The notes under the pieces: model-generated
Seen by the model: only the letters and a program-made list of their open reading frames with translations
What the model was told of the DNA's origin: nothing
Database searches by the model: none
Shown: in pieces, positions 1 through 6,675 of the stretch
How positions within the stretch are numbered: the stretch's first letter is position 1
How the letters are laid out: each line of letters begins with the position of its first letter
Program-made: the position numbers and the translations under genes
Assembly: GCA_013817065.1 (NCBI GenBank)
Contig: JACDDJ010000001.1
Location: 1 to 26,774 of the forward strand
DNA from: Acidobacteriota bacterium
GTDB taxonomy: Bacteria; Acidobacteriota; Vicinamibacteria; Vicinamibacterales; 2-12-FULL-66-21
Length of the DNA: 26,774 nucleotides
Direction of reading: 5' to 3'

Positions 1-482
1 GCGCACGGCTTCCCCTTGCCGTTCAGCCGCACAGAAATTGTTCCGCTCGCCGGTGCGCCGCGAGTGAGTTGCTTACGATCCGACGAGCGCGTCAGACCGT
101 CGTTCGGGAAAATGCGCGGCTGCTGACCAGCGGCGATCAAGTGGATCTCCTCGACATCAGATCCTTCCTGGTATCTGATCGTGAAGCGCACTCCTCCTTT
201 GAGCTCACAGGTAGTGCTGCCCTGTGCGTTGAGCACCGTCGCATCAGCGTTGGTTACTGGCTTGCCGTTTTGCTGATCGGTCGTGAACGCGAGGCCGTCT
301 GAGTAGAGCCAGTTTGGCGGCGCAGGCTGGCCCCTTGCCGGCTCGTGCTCGAAGATGATGGAACCGTTGCGCACGATCATGGCGGGCCGATCCTCTCTCG
401 GAGTCTGAGCGAAGAGCCAGCCGATACCTCCCACAATCGTTGCCACGATCACCGCGATGCTTCCGAGTCTTGTCTTCCTCAC
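1..482 (-). CDS. Unknown-function N-terminally anchored/secreted protein (paralog B); 3' end runs off the window; not in the ORF track
   Basis: Manual translation from GTG at 482, with AAGGAG 6 nt upstream, is open to position 1: MRKTRLGSIAVIVATIVGGIGWLFAQTPREDRPAMIVRNGSIIFEHE...FTTDQQNGKPVT...TTCELK...NGKGKPC. It shares motifs with 552..1088. Confidence 0.85.
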   Translation of the reverse strand, partial: MRKTRLGSIAVIVATIVGGIGWLFAQTPREDRPAMIVRNGSIIFEHEPARGQPAPPNWLYSDGLAFTTDQQNGKPVTNADATVLNAQGSTTCELKGGVRFTIRYQEGSDVEEIHLIAAGQQPRIFPNDGLTRSSDRKQLTRGAPASGTISVRLNGKGKPC

Positions 483-551
483 CGCATTCTCCTTCACCAA
501 CTGAGGACCGGGGATTCAGCCCTGCACTCCCTCAACTCCGACACCGATACG

Positions 552-1088
552 TCAGTCGAAGAATTCGATCTTTGCTTTCGTGATGTTCGGGCAATCCTTT
601 GTTTCGCCGTCCACCTGCTTATAGCTGAGCGAGAAAACGTTTTCGGAGCCGTGCCGCTCGAGTGTCGGATAGTCCGATCCGTTGGAGTCCCTGAGACCGG
701 AGCCAATAACGAGCGGGATGGGCACCGACGCGTGCCCGTTCGCGGTGGTGATCTGAAAGGACTCGAGGATGGCTGTACCGAAGAAGCGGATTCTGATGTC
801 AGTAACTGGCCGCCGACGCACGTCGCAGCCATGCTGTGGTTTGACCGTGAGCACCATGTGGGTCGCTGGTCGGCCGTTGGGCTGATCCGGCGTCCATCGT
901 CCCTCCCGAACCTGTTTCCACGGTCGGCCCTTTTCGGAATTCTCATTGTCGCCACTCTGGAAGATCAACGATCCTCCCCTGACGATCATCGCGGGTCTGT
1001 CCTCGGCGAAGCGGGGCCTGCGGAAGTAACGGATCGCCGCAACCATCCCGATCCCTGCTGCGATCAGAATTCGTATTTTTGCTCTCAC
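552..1088 (-). CDS. Unknown-function N-terminally anchored/secreted protein (paralog A), 178 aa
   Basis: GTG start with AAGGAG overlapping the kinase stop codon. Basic-then-hydrophobic N-terminus (MRAKIRILIAAGIGMVAAI), EDRPAMIVRGGSLIF motif shared with 1..482, Cys88 and Cys166. Confidence 0.85.
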   Translation of the reverse strand: MRAKIRILIAAGIGMVAAIRYFRRPRFAEDRPAMIVRGGSLIFQSGDNENSEKGRPWKQVREGRWTPDQPNGRPATHMVLTVKPQHGCDVRRRPVTDIRIRFFGTAILESFQITTANGHASVPIPLVIGSGLRDSNGSDYPTLERHGSENVFSLSYKQVDGETKDCPNITKAKIEFFD

Positions 1089-1098
1089 ACCGTGCTCC

Positions 1099-4068
1099 TT
1101 ATCGCTGCTCGAGGCCGCTTCTCCTGGCGAGGTCCAGCAGGTCGGCCCGGTTTTCGTATGCCTCGACGCCCTCTTTCCACTGGGCGCGAAGCCGGCTTCG
1201 TGCCTGGCTGGCGCGTTGTGACAAGGCCGTGCTGCGCGCTGCGTCCTTGAGCCCGCGCGCCGCGGCCGCGCCTATCGCAGCCAGGCGCCACTCGAGTTCC
1301 GGCGAAGCACTGACCCTGGCGTCGCCGAGCGCCTCCTCCGCCCCCTTCAGGGCAGCCCGATGGTCCCCGGCCAGGAGATCCGCGTAGCCGACCCAGTAAC
1401 GCGGTTCTGTGGACACCGGTGTTGCCGCCTCTCGTGCGGTGCTCCACACGTCCTGCGAGATGGCGTTCCCGAGCCGAGCTTCCGCATATGTGAACAGCGC
1501 GATCGCCAGCTTGCCGGCCGAATCCTGTATGCCGCGCGGGTCACGGAAAAGCGGGGTGGTGATCCGCGCGCTCTCGCTGAAGTTGCCTTCGACTGCGTAC
1601 CGAAGCCCTTTCAAGGCGATCGCGCGCCGCTCGCGTTCTCGGAACGAGTCGATTCGCTTCGCGGCACCAGCGTGGAGTTCTGCGAGGAGAGGCTCAGACT
1701 CCGCGCCCCGACCCATCCGGATCAGCAGTTCGGCACGATTCGTGAGGTCATAGGGCAGCGCATCGAGCGTATTCTGCTGCCGATTCATTGCCTCGGTTCG
1801 AGCCCTGAGCCGTTCCGCGTGCGGCAGATTCCCCTCGGCGACGACGAAACCCGCAAGGTTTTCGAGTGCAAACGCCGCCGACGCGTCGTCGCCGACGCGC
1901 TCGGCAAGCTCGAGCCCTTCTTCCGAGATTTGGCGTCCTTCCGCGACGCGGCCAAGATCCTCGAGGGTCCTCGACATGATGAGAAGCAGTTGAAGTTCGT
2001 ACCGTCGATACTGTTTGTCCCTCAGAAAATCGAGAACCTGGGTTTCGATCTCCAGGGCCTTGGCGGGTTGTTCGAACTGTGTCAGGGCAGCTGACCTCTG
2101 CATCTTCGCACGCGCGACGATGCGCTGGGCGTTGCGCCGCGTGGCGAGGTCGATCGCCCGTTCGAAGTGGACGTCGATGGATCGAAGCACTGCCGCGTTC
2201 GGAGCTTCGTGAATGCGACTCCGGAAAAGTGCGCTTCCGAGGTCGATCAACCCTTCCGCTGCGACGGTATCGAGACCATGCTTGAGCGCCATCTGCACGG
2301 CGTCGTTCGCGATCTGCTGTGCCTTCACGTAGGCGCCCTCGGTAGCGGTCACGCTGCTCAATTCGAGTTGCGCTCGAATGAATTGCTCGCGATGATCGAG
2401 GGTCTCTGCGAGCGACGCGGCCTTCTCCAGGGCCTGCCGCGCGAGCTGTCTCTCACCGAGGCCATTCAAGTAGGTTCCACGGCGCAGCAGTGTCTCTGCG
2501 ATCCCCTCGGCATCGCTCGCTTGGCGATACAGCTCCTCCGCACGCGCGAAGGCTTTGAGGGCGTCCTCTTTTTCGCCGAGCTGTGACACGACCGTCGCGC
2601 GTCTCAGATGCGCTGCGGCATTCTCGGGGTCCAGTTGAATTGCCCGATCGAAGCTTGCCCGGGCCAGCACAGGCTGAACGGCGGCGTCCTGGGCACGACC
2701 GAGGTCCAGCCAAGCCCCAGAGTCACTCGGCTTCAGCTTCGTCAGGCGATCGTATTCGGCAACCACCTCGTCGACGCGCCGCAACATCAGCGCTCGAACG
2801 GCCCGCAGCCGCGCGCGGTCTTCGTCCGACAGCCGCCGCTCATCACTCGCCAGCGTGCCGACGGTATTGAGTGCGTCCTGCGCGCACTGGTGATCGTCCA
2901 GCTCGGTGCATGCTTCTGCCAGGCGCACGTAGGCGGGCACGTATCCAGGTGCGAGTTGGACGGCACTGCTCAGCGTCACTCGAGCGTTGTTGTAGGCTCC
3001 GTCCCTGATGAACGCCGTGCCGCGCTCATAGCGACGGTGCGCCTCGGGCGGCGCGACGAACTCCTCGGGCGCCCCGGTCCACTTCCACACGCCGATCGCA
3101 GCCATCACCGCGAGGACAGCGGCTCCGGCGGCGAGCATCGCCGCAAGGGAAAATCCTCGGCGGGGGAGTGTACCGACACCACTGATCGAACCCGACCCCG
3201 ACGATATCCGCAACGCGCCGAGCAGTTCCTCGGCGGATCGGAACCTGTCGTCGGGGTGCTTGGCGAGCAGCCGCCGGCACAGTTCATCGTGGTGTTCGTT
3301 CAGTTCACGCCGGATGGACGATACCGGCGGCGGATCGTGGCGCAGGATGCTGCTCGCCACTTCGGCTGAGGACGGACCGGTGAACGGCCGCTGCCCGGTC
3401 AGGCACTCGTGCAGCACCGTGCCGAGGGAGAACAGATCGCTGCGGGCATCGAGCGGACGCTGCGCCACCTGCTCCGGCGACATGTAAGGCAGGGTTCCGA
3501 CCACCGCGCCGGGCGTCGTCAGATTCGTGGTTGTTGAATCGGTGCCGGCATGGTCGCCGGCCAGGCTGTGGACCGCAAGACCGAAGTCGAGCAGCTTCGC
3601 CTGGTTGCTCGAAGTGAGAATGATGTTCTGCGGCTTGATGTCCCTGTGGATGATGTTGTGCGCGTGCGCGGCTTCGAGCGCGGCCGCGAGATCGGTGGCG
3701 ACCGACAGCGCCAGCCTCACATCGAGTGGACCGCTGCGAAGCTTGTCCGCAAGGGTCTGCCCCTCGATGTACTGCATGACGATGCAGGCGCGACCGTCAG
3801 GTTCGGCGATGACCTCGTGGACGCCGCAGATGTTGGGATGATCGAGCGCGGCCGCTGCGCGTGCTTCGCGGAGCAGCCGCCGGCGCGACGCGTCGTCGGC
3901 GGCCTTATCCGGTGCGATGAACTTGATGGCTACGGGGCGATCGAGCGCGAGATCCTGCGCGAGATAGACGCTTCCCATCCCGCCCGAGCCAATGAGGCGA
4001 TCGAGCCGGTAGTTCGAGAGCCGCGCACCGGGAGCGACTGGATCCATCGGGAGCCGAGCCGAACGCAT
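1099..4068 (-). CDS. Membrane Ser/Thr (Hanks-type) protein kinase with C-terminal TPR-like helical ectodomain
   Basis: GSGGMGSV, VAIK, HRDIKPQN, DFG, YMSPE and SDLFS motifs. One hydrophobic segment (LAAMLAAGAAVLAVMAAIGVW), then TPR-like repeats (e.g. AWLDLGRAQ...ARASFDRAIQLDPENAAAHL). The alternative start is ATG at 4047. Confidence 0.93.
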   Translation of the reverse strand: MRSARLPMDPVAPGARLSNYRLDRLIGSGGMGSVYLAQDLALDRPVAIKFIAPDKAADDASRRRLLREARAAAALDHPNICGVHEVIAEPDGRACIVMQYIEGQTLADKLRSGPLDVRLALSVATDLAAALEAAHAHNIIHRDIKPQNIILTSSNQAKLLDFGLAVHSLAGDHAGTDSTTTNLTTPGAVVGTLPYMSPEQVAQRPLDARSDLFSLGTVLHECLTGQRPFTGPSSAEVASSILRHDPPPVSSIRRELNEHHDELCRRLLAKHPDDRFRSAEELLGALRISSGSGSISGVGTLPRRGFSLAAMLAAGAAVLAVMAAIGVWKWTGAPEEFVAPPEAHRRYERGTAFIRDGAYNNARVTLSSAVQLAPGYVPAYVRLAEACTELDDHQCAQDALNTVGTLASDERRLSDEDRARLRAVRALMLRRVDEVVAEYDRLTKLKPSDSGAWLDLGRAQDAAVQPVLARASFDRAIQLDPENAAAHLRRATVVSQLGEKEDALKAFARAEELYRQASDAEGIAETLLRRGTYLNGLGERQLARQALEKAASLAETLDHREQFIRAQLELSSVTATEGAYVKAQQIANDAVQMALKHGLDTVAAEGLIDLGSALFRSRIHEAPNAAVLRSIDVHFERAIDLATRRNAQRIVARAKMQRSAALTQFEQPAKALEIETQVLDFLRDKQYRRYELQLLLIMSRTLEDLGRVAEGRQISEEGLELAERVGDDASAAFALENLAGFVVAEGNLPHAERLRARTEAMNRQQNTLDALPYDLTNRAELLIRMGRGAESEPLLAELHAGAAKRIDSFRERERRAIALKGLRYAVEGNFSESARITTPLFRDPRGIQDSAGKLAIALFTYAEARLGNAISQDVWSTAREAATPVSTEPRYWVGYADLLAGDHRAALKGAEEALGDARVSASPELEWRLAAIGAAAARGLKDAARSTALSQRASQARSRLRAQWKEGVEAYENRADLLDLARRSGLEQR

Positions 4069-4114: not shown

Positions 4115-4858
4115 TCACCGCCGCGCCGGCGGACGGCTGCCGATGGCGAAAATCCGCACCAGCACCGCGCCGGCGATGAAGCCGCCGATGTGCGCCATGA
4201 AGGCGACGCCGCCGCCCGACTGTGGTCCCTGGCCGAGCACACCGTAGGCGCTGATCAACTGCAGGATGAACCACAGGCCGACGGCCACGTAGCCGGGGAC
4301 CTGCGTGATCATGCGCAGCAGCAGCACTCGGACCCGCCGGTGCGGGTGCATCACGAGGTAGGCGCCCATCACGGCCGAGATGGCGCCCGAGGCACCCAGG
4401 CTCGGGATGAACGGGTTGTCGCCAAAGACAAAGGTCGAGACGACGTGGGCGATCGACGCAAGCACACCGGTCGCGAGGTAGAAGGCGGTGTAGCGGCCGT
4501 GCCCGAGGTCGTCCTCGATGTTGTCGCCGAAGATCCACAGGAACAACATGTTGCCGAGCAGGTGCATCAGGCTGCCGTGCATGAACATCGACACCAGCAG
4601 GGTGAGGTAGACGGAACCGGGCGTCTCCTGCAGCGGGATGACGGCCGACTGGTCGCCGATCTCGACCCGGACCGGTCGAGCGACGTCTTCGCCGGTTCGG
4701 ATCTCCTGGGGAACCGTCGAGAAGGAATACGTGAACCGCTCGTTGTTGCCCATGCCCTGGAAGAGCACGAACACCAGCACGTTCATCGCAATCAGCAGAT
4801 ACGTGACGTACGGCGTGCGCAGCCGTCCAGTGTTGTCGTCGCCGATCGGGAATACCAT
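4115..4858 (-). CDS. Rhomboid family intramembrane serine protease
   Basis: HLLGNMLFLWIFG, catalytic Ser in GASGAIS, catalytic His in AHIGGF, multiple TM segments. Confidence 0.95.
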   Translation of the reverse strand: MVFPIGDDNTGRLRTPYVTYLLIAMNVLVFVLFQGMGNNERFTYSFSTVPQEIRTGEDVARPVRVEIGDQSAVIPLQETPGSVYLTLLVSMFMHGSLMHLLGNMLFLWIFGDNIEDDLGHGRYTAFYLATGVLASIAHVVSTFVFGDNPFIPSLGASGAISAVMGAYLVMHPHRRVRVLLLRMITQVPGYVAVGLWFILQLISAYGVLGQGPQSGGGVAFMAHIGGFIAGAVLVRIFAIGSRPPARR

Positions 4859-4898: not shown

Positions 4899-5189
4899 TT
4901 ACTCGGCGACGTCTTTTTCGCGCGGCCGCCAGAGGATCAGGACCTTGCCAACCCGATGCACGGCTGCCGCGGCGGTGCGGGCGCAGATCTCGTCGCCGAT
5001 CGCGATCCGGTCCGCCCGGTCGGCAGCATTGACCTTGACCTTGATCAGTTCGTGCGCCGTCAGCGCGCGATCGACTTCGGCGATCAGCGTGTCGGTGATG
5101 CCCGCATTGCCAGCCTGCACCACTGGCTCGAGTGCGTGCGCGCGGGCTTTGAGGTGAGCACGTTCCCGGGCAGTCAATGGCGTGGCCAT
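4899..5189 (-). CDS. yhbY: YhbY family (CRM domain) RNA-binding / ribosome assembly protein
   Basis: 96 aa with LTxRERxHLKARAHALEPVV, ALTAHELIKVK and VGKVLILWR signatures. Confidence 0.93.
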   Translation of the reverse strand: MATPLTARERAHLKARAHALEPVVQAGNAGITDTLIAEVDRALTAHELIKVKVNAADRADRIAIGDEICARTAAAAVHRVGKVLILWRPREKDVAE

Positions 5190-5194
5190 GCGCC

Positions 5195-5223
5195 ATTGTA
5201 GTCTTCGAGGCGCCCGGTATCAT
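5195..5223. promoter_or_regulatory. Back-to-back -10 hexamers for yhbY (TACAAT, - strand, 5195-5200) and selO (TATCAT, + strand, 5218-5223)
   Basis: Each hexamer lies 5-6 nt before its start codon in a 40-nt divergent spacer. Confidence 0.55.
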
Positions 5224-5229
5224 GGAGGC

Positions 5230-6675
5230 ATGCCAGGCTGGCGCCTCGAACATACCTACGCGGACCTTCCCCAACTCTTCTATGCCGACGCCAGGCCGGC
5301 GCCGGTTCGAGCGCCGCGTCTCGTCGCATGCAACAAACAGCTCGCGGTAACGCTCGGCCTGGAGCCGGAGACGCTGGACGGCCCGCAGGGCGCCGAGATC
5401 TTCGCCGGCAACGCCCTGCCCGAGGGCGCCAGACCGATTGCCCAGGCGTACGCCGGCCACCAGTTCGGCGGCTTCACCGCTCTCGGTGACGGCCGCGCCA
5501 TTTTGCTCGGCGAGCAGGTGACGCCGTCAGGGGACCGCTTCGACATCCAGTTGAAAGGGGCAGGGCAGACGCGCTACTCGCGACGCGGGGACGGGCGCGC
5601 CGCGCTCGGGCCGATGCTGCGCGAATACATCATCAGCGAGGCGATGCACGCGCTTGGCATCCCGACCACCCGCAGTCTCGCGGTCGTGATGACCGGCGAG
5701 CCGGTGTATCGCGAGTCGGAGCTCGAAGGCGCCGTCCTCACGAGGGTGGCCTCGAGCCATATTCGGGTAGGCACGATGCAGTGGGCGGCCGCGCACGACG
5801 ATCAGCCGGCACTGCGCGCCCTCGCTGACTACACCCGGGCGCGGCATTATCCGGAACTTGCCGACGCCGCGGAGCCGCACCTCGCCCTGCTCGACGCGAT
5901 CATCGAACGGCAGGCGCGCCTGATCGTCCAGTGGCAGCTGGTCGGCTTCATCCACGGCGTGATGAACACCGACAACATGGCGCTGTCGGGCGAAACCATC
6001 GACTACGGACCCTGCGCGTTCATGGACGCGTACGATCCTGAAACCGTGTTCAGCTCGATCGACCACGGCGGCCGATACGCTTACGGCAATCAGCCGCCAG
6101 TCGCGCAGTGGAACCTCGCGCGCCTCGCGGAAGCGATGTTGCCGCTGCTGAACGCTGATCTCAACCGTGCCGTCGAGCTGGCGACCGCATCACTCGAGCG
6201 GTTTCCGGTACTGTTCGAGAGCGGATGGCTCGCCGGAATGCGCTCCAAGCTCGGGCTGTTCACCGAAGAGCCGGAAGACAAGGCGCTCGTCGACGATCTG
6301 CTCCTCTGGATGGAGCGAACATCCGCCGACTTCACCAACACCTTTCGGAATCTGACGATGGCAGATCGCTCGGAGGATGCGCGGAGGTTAGACGCGCAGT
6401 TCGATGCCTGGCACAGCCGGCTGGACGCGCGGCGCGCACGGCAAACGCAGTCGCGCGCTGAGGCGGAGGCGCTGATGCGAGCCCACAATCCCGCCTTCAT
6501 CCCACGCAATCACAAGGTGGAGGAGGCGCTGCAAGCCGCCAGTGGAAACGACGACTTCACCGTGATGCAGCGGTTGCTGGACGTCCTCGCAACACCCTAC
6601 GATCACGACCGCGACCTGCCGGCTTTCAGCGCGCCGGGCGACTCCAGGACTTACCGCACGTTCTGCGGGACCTGA
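5230..6675 (+). CDS. selO: Protein adenylyltransferase SelO (YdiU/UPF0061 pseudokinase AMPylase)
   Basis: YAGHQFG, LGDGRA, QLKGAGxTxYSRxGDGRA, HGVMNTDN, IDYGP and C-terminal TFCGT. ATG 5230 preceded by GGAGG is preferred over the track start 5182. Confidence 0.95.
   Translation: MPGWRLEHTYADLPQLFYADARPAPVRAPRLVACNKQLAVTLGLEPETLDGPQGAEIFAGNALPEGARPIAQAYAGHQFGGFTALGDGRAILLGEQVTPSGDRFDIQLKGAGQTRYSRRGDGRAALGPMLREYIISEAMHALGIPTTRSLAVVMTGEPVYRESELEGAVLTRVASSHIRVGTMQWAAAHDDQPALRALADYTRARHYPELADAAEPHLALLDAIIERQARLIVQWQLVGFIHGVMNTDNMALSGETIDYGPCAFMDAYDPETVFSSIDHGGRYAYGNQPPVAQWNLARLAEAMLPLLNADLNRAVELATASLERFPVLFESGWLAGMRSKLGLFTEEPEDKALVDDLLLWMERTSADFTNTFRNLTMADRSEDARRLDAQFDAWHSRLDARRARQTQSRAEAEALMRAHNPAFIPRNHKVEEALQAASGNDDFTVMQRLLDVLATPYDHDRDLPAFSAPGDSRTYRTFCGT

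What the first reader, a model, noticed from the sequence alone, without database searches (positions are those of the whole stretch)
1..4068. Candidate receptor-kinase / cognate-ligand operon: TPR-ectodomain Ser/Thr kinase coupled to the exported paralogs
Seen: the kinase has intact catalytic motifs, one TM segment and about 650 aa of TPR-like ectodomain. Its stop codon overlaps the AAGGAG RBS of paralog A (10-nt gap), and B follows on the same strand 69 nt later. Established: TPR arrays bind peptides and proteins, and Hanks kinases with TM ectodomains act as receptors. Inference: the small proteins are extracytoplasmic ligands, co-receptors or inhibitors of this kinase. That would be a eukaryote-like protein-ligand receptor kinase system, which I do not know to be described in bacteria.
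Basis: partly seen in the sequence, partly recalled or inferred. Interest (0 to 1): 0.85.

Follow-up and report, generated by a model that had tools for sequence, protein, structure and literature searches.

The report
Receptor kinase with dedicated periplasmic partner
A soil Acidobacteria genome encodes a membrane Ser/Thr kinase with a large outward-facing TPR domain, always followed by a gene for a small membrane-anchored protein of an unnamed family. The pair is a conserved signalling module and gives a testable candidate for what such bacterial receptor kinases touch, but binding has not been shown.

Summary
A 989-aa Hanks kinase has intact motifs, one TM helix and a 655-aa all-helical TPR solenoid. 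Ten nt downstream lies small protein A, and 69 nt further its 33%-identical paralog B, which is cut by the contig end.

- All 15 full-length kinase orthologs paired (six more) carry an A-like gene −4 to +27 nt downstream.
- 23 of 26 assessable A-like genes in a 401-genome sample of the order sit right behind such a kinase.
- So do all metagenome contigs that are long enough.
- Flanking genes are not conserved, so the pair itself is what is kept.

Predicted topology puts the TPR domain and the partner's beta domain both in the periplasm. The partner family (about 299 clusters) has no Pfam or NCBIfam name and no structural neighbour. I found it only in Vicinamibacterales.

Physical binding is not shown. 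The "diffusible ligand" reading and the claim of no bacterial precedent are both overstated, since TagR–PpkA, GlnH/GlnX–PknG and YycH/YycI–WalK exist.

Best reading: a cis-acting, membrane-anchored accessory subunit or co-receptor of the kinase. This is a new variant of a known kind.

The parts
1099..4068 (-). Gene K: bitopic Hanks-type Ser/Thr kinase, 989 aa (the true start could be the second ATG at 4047, as orthologs begin MDPV)
   Evidence: ORF. Pfam Pkinase 1.3e-46. Orthologs in 29/112 genomes of the family and about 37/401 of the order.
3226..4011 (-). Cytoplasmic kinase domain (residues 20-281) with G-loop, VAIK, HRD, DFG and SPE motifs
   Evidence: for the domain. for motif positions.
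3085..3153 (-). Single transmembrane helix (residues 306-328). It ends in the conserved G-[VIL]-W-x-W motif.
   Evidence: Best Kyte-Doolittle window 2.31, next best 1.14. The Arg-rich N flank is seen in most of the 16 orthologs. Conserved periplasmic end of the helix.
1102..3066 (-). Predicted periplasmic TPR-like alpha-solenoid, 655 aa, about 17 helical hairpins
   Evidence: Pfam TPR hits. PDB profile hits to consensus TPR, OGT, LGN and KLC. AF2 pLDDT 92.9, all helical. Foldseek hits to Ctr9, Ski3, OGT, LGN and APC/C.
1089..1104 (-). K-A junction: the TAA stop overlaps the AAGGAG Shine-Dalgarno, 10 nt before the GTG of A (translational coupling likely)
   Evidence: Sequence read. Gaps of -4 to +27 nt in the 15 ortholog pairs.
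552..1088 (-). Gene A: 178-aa protein with an N-terminal helix (residues 6-21), the conserved motif EDRPAMIVRGGSLIF (29-43; window 960-1004), an all-beta domain, and Cys88/Cys166
   Evidence: AF2 pLDDT 90.8. The family has 299 clusters at 50% identity. No Pfam or NCBIfam hit.
504..523 (-). Conserved 7-bp hairpin in the A-B spacer, just upstream of B's Shine-Dalgarno. In relatives with a single partner gene, the same element sits on the kinase stop codon.
   Evidence: RNAalifold finds 7 pairs, 2 of them with compensatory changes.
3..482 (-). Gene B (3' end missing, cut by the contig end): a paralog of A with TM residues 6-25, motif EDRPAMIVRNGSIIF (30-44; window 351-395), and Cys92/Cys160
   Evidence: Full-length orthologs of 173-185 aa in L007-L009.

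Best explanation
K, A and B form one transcription unit. It encodes a receptor-type Hanks Ser/Thr kinase and its dedicated extracytoplasmic partner, duplicated in this lineage.

Proposed arrangement:
- K spans the inner membrane once, with the kinase domain in the cytoplasm and a 655-aa TPR superhelix in the periplasm.
- A and B are inserted with the N-terminus in and the C-terminus out, through a Gly-rich N-terminal helix.
- Each displays a small disulfide-capable beta domain whose first beta-hairpin, directly at the membrane surface, carries the only strongly conserved motif ([DE][DE]RP-x-I-x-V-x-x-GS).

Proposed mechanism (inferred): the partner docks in cis on the kinase through the motif and/or the transmembrane helices. 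It then acts as an accessory subunit, either a co-receptor or a regulator of kinase dimerisation and autophosphorylation. Its fast-evolving remaining surface would be the variable, signal-facing part.

Shown here: gene order, tight coupling, conservation of the pair in both directions, and predicted folds and topology.
Inferred: physical contact, the direction of regulation, and the signal.
For: 1. Every full-length K ortholog paired (15) has an A-like gene -4 to +27 nt downstream. So do G157, G400 and G428, which a stricter threshold had missed, and G310 keeps a truncated copy.
2. In the reverse direction, 23 of 26 assessable A-like loci in a 401-genome sample of the order have the K C-terminus directly upstream. 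Phyletic overlap is 30 genomes, out of 36 with A-like and about 37 with K.
3. Of six family representatives taken from metagenomes, all contigs long enough show a 933-975-aa Pkinase+TPR gene or a K C-terminus upstream.
4. Flanking genes are not conserved, so the adjacency itself is retained through rearrangements.
5. Topology: single TM with a positive-inside flank in K; an N-terminal hydrophobic helix in 94/103 partners; the N flank more positive in 83/103; two Cys conserved in 89%.
6. GxxxG occurs in 45/103 partner helices against 28 +/- 4 in shuffles, and the kinase helix ends in a conserved G-x-W-x-W.
7. Partner conservation peaks sharply at residues 31-45 (0.73, against 0.24-0.47 elsewhere). 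The kinase ectodomain is evenly conserved.
8. Distances of K ectodomains and partners co-vary (Mantel r 0.78, p 2e-4), and the partner evolves faster.
9. The ectodomain is a confident TPR scaffold of the kind that wraps protein partners.
10. Tandem duplication of the partner arose independently in another lineage (L108/L109).
Against: - There is no direct evidence of contact. No expression or co-transcription data could be obtained.
- A few A-like genes stand without a K ortholog next to them or in the genome at the thresholds used: G099, G104, G111 and G118. The partner can therefore persist alone.
- Window protein A itself has an atypical, Arg-rich C flank of its helix, so its topology is less clear than the family's.
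- Some members have cleavable-looking signal peptides (L041, L024) and would be soluble, not anchored.
- Co-variation of distances is expected for any two adjacent, vertically inherited genes.
- Related genomes are not independent samples.
Confidence: 0.5

Rival explanations
1. Same pathway, but no regulatory binding. The small protein would be a client, cargo or substrate: an envelope protein whose assembly uses the TPR scaffold, or whose short cytoplasmic tail is phosphorylated by the kinase. It would not be a regulator of the kinase.
For: The conserved operon fits this equally well. TPR solenoids commonly act as assembly scaffolds (one search hits). The N-terminal tails of the partners are Thr-rich: 14% Thr against 8% in the rest, and 75/103 have at least one Thr.
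Against: The tails have a median length of only 8 residues, and window protein A has no Ser or Thr in its tail. No other envelope-assembly genes are conserved nearby. A one-to-one coupled pair with a single conserved docking-like motif fits a subunit better.
Confidence: 0.25
2. A and B would be released, diffusible protein ligands (autocrine or intercellular) of the kinase ectodomain, as in eukaryotic receptor-kinase/ligand pairs, possibly shed by the upstream rhomboid protease.
For: A few family members have canonical cleavable signal peptides (L041 ...ALA|A, L024 ...ALGA|S). A rhomboid gene lies 46 nt upstream of K in this window (Pfam 2e-30). The partner surface evolves fast.
Against: Most members keep an uncleaved-looking Gly-rich anchor with GxxxG enrichment. 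A released protein would still be held in the periplasm of a diderm cell. The rhomboid is not linked to the module: it was found within 8 kb in 1 of 20 ortholog loci and is never adjacent there. Stoichiometric translational coupling suits a subunit, not a signal.
Confidence: 0.1
3. Adjacency without functional meaning: a small gene hitch-hiking in the kinase's transcription unit in one clade.
For: All carriers belong to one order, so shared ancestry explains part of the recurrence.
Against: The pair survives where every flanking gene has changed, across several GTDB families, and at 15-30% partner identity. Gaps stay at -4 to +27 nt. A paralogous kinase subfamily carries a different, equally constant downstream gene.
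Confidence: 0.05

Closest known systems
PknS of Xanthomonas citri (transmembrane Hanks kinase with periplasmic TPRs; PMC13147305)
   Same: Same architecture: an N-terminal cytoplasmic kinase, one TM helix and a C-terminal periplasmic TPR region. In PknS that region is needed for signalling and seems to restrain auto-activation.
   Different: PknS has three TPRs, not a 655-aa solenoid. It is wired to an ECF sigma factor (EcfK), and no dedicated periplasmic partner gene is described. No sigma factor is conserved next to K.
TagQ/TagR-PpkA sensor module of the Pseudomonas aeruginosa H1-T6SS (PMC13713981)
   Same: A periplasmic protein is required for autophosphorylation of a bitopic Hanks kinase. 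The proposed model is a partner-driven dimerisation of the kinase's periplasmic domain.
   Different: TagR is an FGE-sulfatase-type protein held by an outer-membrane lipoprotein. PpkA's periplasmic domain is not TPR, and the context is T6SS. Direct TagR-PpkA binding is itself still unproven. A has no Pfam domain, and no T6SS gene turned up among the conserved neighbour clusters.
WalK with YycH/YycI of Bacillota (PMC7355866, PMC5013275)
   Same: This is the closest match in gene organisation. Two accessory membrane proteins with extracytoplasmic domains are encoded directly downstream of the sensor kinase and modulate it. From my own knowledge, contact there runs through the TM helices.
   Different: WalK is a histidine kinase, the organisms are monoderm, and there is no sequence or fold relation to A/B.
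GlnH-GlnX-PknG of mycobacteria (PMC6069109)
   Same: A TPR-bearing Hanks kinase receives an extracytoplasmic signal through operon-encoded protein partners.
   Different: PknG is soluble and its TPR is cytoplasmic. The signal passes through a solute-binding lipoprotein and a membrane protein. Here the TPR itself is predicted to be periplasmic.
Eukaryotic TPR scaffolds LGN/Pins, OGT, Ctr9 and Ski3 (structural neighbours of the ectodomain)
   Same: Superhelical TPR arrays that enclose extended segments or domains of partner proteins.
   Different: The likeness is in fold only (TM 0.3-0.6 over parts). They have no kinase and no membrane context.

Membership tests
Hanks-type (eukaryote-like) Ser/Thr protein kinases | Pkinase domain above the Pfam gathering score | tested here: met
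   PF00069, 159.6 bits against a cut-off of 31.7, residues 20-281.
Hanks-type (eukaryote-like) Ser/Thr protein kinases | Catalytic motifs: G-loop, VAIK Lys, HRD, DFG and APE-like | tested here: met
   GSGGMGSV 27-34, VAIK 46-49, HRDIKPQN 141-148, DFG 161-163, SPE 197-199.
Hanks-type (eukaryote-like) Ser/Thr protein kinases | Phosphotransfer activity | not testable with these tools
   Needs an in vitro autophosphorylation assay.
TPR-repeat proteins | TPR profile matches and an alpha-alpha superhelix | tested here: met
   TPR_1 scores 37.6 bits (cut-off 27.8), and TPR_8 and TPR_11 are also above their cut-offs. PDB profile hits to consensus TPR at 1e-37. AF2 gives about 34 helices at pLDDT 92.9. 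Foldseek matches TPR scaffolds.
Receptor-type (bitopic) bacterial kinase with an extracytoplasmic sensor domain | One TM helix, kinase inside and C-terminal domain outside | tested here: inconclusive
   A single strong hydrophobic segment with a positive-inside flank is seen in most of the 16 orthologs. This is a prediction only; no topology reporter was used.
TagR-PpkA type module | FGE-sulfatase-type periplasmic activator, T6SS context | tested here: not met
   A and B have no Pfam or NCBIfam domain. No conserved neighbours.
WalK-YycH/YycI type module | Anchored extracytoplasmic accessory proteins encoded directly downstream of the kinase | tested here: met
   Gene order K-A-B with 10- and 69-nt gaps. 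N-terminal helix in 94/103 family members.
WalK-YycH/YycI type module | Histidine kinase; YycH/YycI fold | tested here: not met
   K is a Hanks kinase. The model of A has no structural neighbour: Foldseek E > 0.05 and best VIA Z 4.6.
Type IV pilin-like proteins (considered because of the N-terminal helix, beta domain and Cys pair) | Prepilin leader G|[FM]xxxE with Glu at +5 | tested here: not met
   No such motif in A, B or the aligned orthologs (alignments). Pilin and archaellin hits are insignificant.
Any named protein family for A/B | Match to Pfam, NCBIfam, PADLOC or a PDB sequence | tested here: not met
   Zero families at E <= 0.1 in Pfam. Nothing meaningful in NCBIfam. No PADLOC hit. 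The family profile against the PDB gives a best E of 0.23.

The most novel reading that the evidence does not exclude
The module would be an obligate heteromeric receptor kinase. The small beta protein inserts its conserved N-terminal hairpin into the periplasmic TPR superhelix and gates kinase dimerisation. Its hypervariable surface is the actual sensor for an environmental or cell-envelope cue. Partner duplication (A plus B here, and independently in L108) would expand the range of cues one kinase can read. This would be the first defined protein co-receptor for a bacterial TPR-ectodomain Hanks kinase, built on a beta fold with no known structural relative.
Probability: 0.3. Interest if true: 0.7.

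Novelty: new variant of a known kind. Interest (0 to 1): 0.52.

Why it matters
What the extracytoplasmic domains of bacterial receptor Ser/Thr kinases sense is mostly unknown. TPR is the accessory domain found most widely across kinase families (10.1101/2025.01.12.632604), yet no partner of a periplasmic TPR kinase domain is defined.

A gene that accompanies one such kinase lineage nearly one-to-one supplies a concrete candidate. It can be tested with pull-downs, structures and autophosphorylation assays.

The partner is also an unnamed family of about 300 clusters with a confident predicted fold that matches nothing solved. Because the module is confined to uncultured or rarely cultured soil Vicinamibacterales, it is of more use as a model than for any application.

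Tried and rejected
- Complex prediction of the K ectodomain with A residues 24-178, using my own 16-row alignments. The verdict was 'no answer', which is neither support nor evidence against.
- Fold searches with the A model in PDB Foldseek, AFDB clusters, VIA-align wide and the ESM Atlas. Nothing was significant: the best Z was 4.6, to the PflA N-terminal domain, and I treat that as noise.
- ESM Atlas search by features: no usable hit.
- The search for related loci with the 103-row alignment failed for lack of a conserved stretch. With the 13-row alignment it returned only 4 loci, which served to name the taxon.
- Search for RNA evidence of co-transcription. Only soil DNA metagenomes hold the sequence, and the contigs laid on it show presence but not transcripts.
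- Rhomboid 'shedding' link: rejected, because the adjacency is not conserved.
- Pilin-like reading: rejected, because there is no prepilin motif.
- Anti-phage defence reading: the PADLOC hits of K are generic kinase-domain matches and A/B have none, so I did not pursue it.
- Conserved neighbourhood beyond K-A (phosphatase, FHA, sigma factor): none found.
- Thr-rich cytoplasmic tails as a kinase substrate: a mild enrichment only, kept as a rival and not adopted.


Full report
**What is there**

The window is a whole 26.8-kb contig of a fragmented metagenome-assembled genome (847 contigs, 84.5% complete). Record titles of two genomes that the search ranks in the same genus read 'Vicinamibacterales bacterium', phylum Acidobacteriota.

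Three genes lie head to tail on the minus strand.
- K, 1099-4068, 989 aa.
- A, 552-1088, 178 aa, GTG start.
- B, GTG at 482, running off the contig at base 3 with 160 aa seen.

K's TAA stop overlaps an AAGGAG box 10 nt before A's start. B starts 69 nt after A's stop, behind its own AAGGAG. No terminator-like site separates the genes.

**The kinase**

Pfam Pkinase matches residues 20-281 at 1.3e-46, and all catalytic motifs are present. There is one strong hydrophobic segment, 306-328. Its N flank is Arg-rich in K and in most of the 16 aligned orthologs, which predicts kinase inside and C-terminus outside.

The remaining 655 residues carry several TPR families above their cut-offs. They also match consensus-TPR, OGT, LGN and kinesin-light-chain structures by profile. 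AlphaFold2 on 16 orthologs gives an all-helical solenoid of about 34 helices (pLDDT 92.9, pTM 0.85). Its structural neighbours are long TPR scaffolds that enclose partner proteins, such as Ctr9, Ski3, OGT, LGN and APC/C subunits.

**The small proteins**

A and B are 33% identical (E 7e-11). Each has:
- a short basic N-terminus;
- a Gly-rich hydrophobic helix;
- the motif EDRPAMIVRxGSxIF directly after the helix;
- an all-beta body with two cysteines.

AlphaFold2 on a 103-member alignment models A with pLDDT 90.8 as helix 3-22 plus 13 strands. The motif forms the first beta-hairpin. No Pfam, NCBIfam, PADLOC or PDB sequence match exists. No structural neighbour turned up in PDB, AFDB clusters or the ESM Atlas.

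A word-indexed search found only 7 close clusters. A profile search of 1.84 billion representatives found 299 clusters at E <= 1e-3, nearly all 160-220 aa.

Across 103 members, W57 is invariant. R31, P32, V36, G39 and S40 are conserved in at least 97%, and the two Cys in 89%. Conservation peaks sharply at residues 31-45 and is low elsewhere.

Of the 103 members, 94 have an N-terminal hydrophobic segment, and in 83 the N flank is the more positive one. That predicts N-in, C-out. GxxxG occurs in 45 of the helices, against 28 +/- 4 after shuffling.

**The linkage test**

Starting from the kinase:
- The ectodomain has full-length orthologs (37-47% identity over all 655 residues) in 29 of 112 genomes of the taxonomic family.
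- All 15 that could be paired with downstream sequence have an A-like gene -4 to +27 nt after the stop.
- adds further orthologs, some broken into pieces, that also carry one.
- Four more top-tier orthologs in the order-wide sample had no partner hit at E 1e-5. Inspection showed a divergent copy in three (G157, G400, G428) and a truncated one in G310.

Starting from the small protein:
- 36 of 401 sampled genomes of the order have an A-like gene.
- Of the 30 loci fetched, 26 have enough upstream sequence to judge, and 23 show the C-terminus of a K ortholog directly upstream.
- The exceptions are G099, G104 and G111. A further locus, L061, is probably the second gene of a tandem pair.
- One of the 30 loci (G398) is from an unpublished genome. 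No conclusion depends on it.

On the same 401 genomes, 30 carry both genes, out of 36 with A-like and about 37 with a top-tier K.

Six family representatives picked across the E-value range from metagenomes gave the same picture. Wherever the contig is long enough, the neighbour is a 933-975-aa Pkinase+TPR gene or a K C-terminus.

Genes flanking the pair are not conserved in 20 loci with 8 kb either side. The unit kept by selection is therefore the pair.

In a phylum-wide sample of 401 genomes, no hit fell outside this order. One contig binned as Gemmatimonadaceae carries a module nearly identical to a Vicinamibacterales one. It is probably a binning error.

**Other evolutionary signals**

Pairwise distances of K ectodomains and partners correlate (Mantel r 0.78, p 2e-4). 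The partner diverges faster, with mean p-distance 0.77 against 0.55. This shows co-inheritance without partner swapping. It is expected for adjacent genes and does not prove contact.

Close relatives of the window (66-84% identity) keep K-A-B. More distant members of the genus have a single partner.

In a tree, A groups with those single partners. B sits apart on a weakly supported branch. Another lineage (L108/L109) duplicated its partner independently.

**How it most likely works**

Both proteins are predicted to expose their conserved parts at the periplasmic face of the inner membrane.
- The kinase helix ends in G-x-W-x-W, followed by a conserved juxtamembrane stretch.
- The partner's only strongly conserved element lies right after its Gly-rich helix.

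Translational coupling implies production in fixed proportion. I therefore read the small protein as a cis-acting accessory subunit of the kinase, either a co-receptor or a regulator. It would dock through the motif and/or the helices, and its variable body would face the signal. I give this about 0.5.

That the three genes form one conserved functional module I hold at about 0.9.

The alternatives:
- The partner is a client or substrate of the kinase (0.25).
- The adjacency is meaningless (0.05).

**Comparison with what is known**

The architecture of kinase, TM helix and periplasmic TPR is known, for example PknS (PMC13147305). TPR is the accessory domain most widely shared among bacterial kinase families (10.1101/2025.01.12.632604).

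Protein partners acting on Hanks kinases from outside the cytoplasm also have precedents.
- TagR is required for PpkA autophosphorylation, though its direct binding is still unproven (PMC13713981).
- GlnH/GlnX signal to PknG (PMC6069109).

None of these shares sequence or fold with A/B. The finding is thus a new variant of a known kind, not a categorically new system.

**Limits**

- Binding is untested.
- Topology is predicted, not measured.
- No transcript data exist.
- Carriers are related genomes of one order.
- B is incomplete in this window.

Noticed in passing
window 504-523 (- strand); also L011 1069-1112, L014 3297-3340, L015, L016, L019: A 7-bp hairpin (consensus GCAGGRCTGAAT-nnn-CGGTCCTGA) sits on the kinase stop codon just before the partner's Shine-Dalgarno in relatives with one partner. 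In the window lineage the same sequence survives in the non-coding A-B spacer. There it is about 80% identical to the K-A junction of G010, although the proteins are only about 30% identical. Two stem pairs show compensatory changes. It may be a coupling or processing element.
   Followed up: partly
window 4115-4858 (- strand): A rhomboid protease gene (Pfam 2e-30) lies 46 nt upstream of the kinase on the same strand. Another first-reader note proposed ligand shedding. A rhomboid was found within 8 kb of only 1 of 20 ortholog loci, and it is not adjacent there. The link looks accidental.
   Followed up: yes
L099-L103, L105, L106 (G440, G249, G169, G054, G191, G261, G252); also L036, L038: A paralogous subfamily of the TPR kinase (ectodomain E about 1e-85 to 1e-105) is followed by a different gene, not by an A-like one. 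That gene is equally constant, about 370-455 aa, with no TM helix and no Pfam match. It starts MAEVE[LI]GKR and contains MNYVHLPMKRAIHAIDPIQQLKLLRF. In some of these loci a small Lys-rich ORF lies in between. Each kinase subfamily seems to have its own dedicated downstream gene.
   Followed up: partly
L049, L050 (G104, G099), L062 (G111): These are orphan A-like genes without an adjacent or detectable kinase ortholog. The G099 and G104 copies have an extended N-terminal region before the motif.
   Followed up: partly
L008 1916-2875; L047 (G084): A second, unrelated Hanks kinase gene follows the partner gene(s) on the same strand in two loci. In L008 it is 25% identical to K in the kinase domain. 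This may be chance in kinase-rich Acidobacteria.
   Followed up: no
window 664: A contig of another soil metagenome (run X2, about 99% identical) has one extra T after position 664, inside gene A. This would shift the frame of the last ~37 residues. It could be a strain variant or an assembly error.
   Followed up: no
L072 (DATLXE010000502.1): A contig binned as Gemmatimonadaceae carries a K-A module that groups with the Vicinamibacterales genome G010. This is a likely mis-binning, or else a recent transfer.
   Followed up: no
window 4899-5189 (-) and 5182-6675 (+): Ordinary neighbours: the ribosome-assembly protein YhbY (TIGR00253, 9e-25) and the protein adenylyltransferase SelO (Pfam 5e-108). 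Their 5' ends overlap divergently.
   Followed up: no
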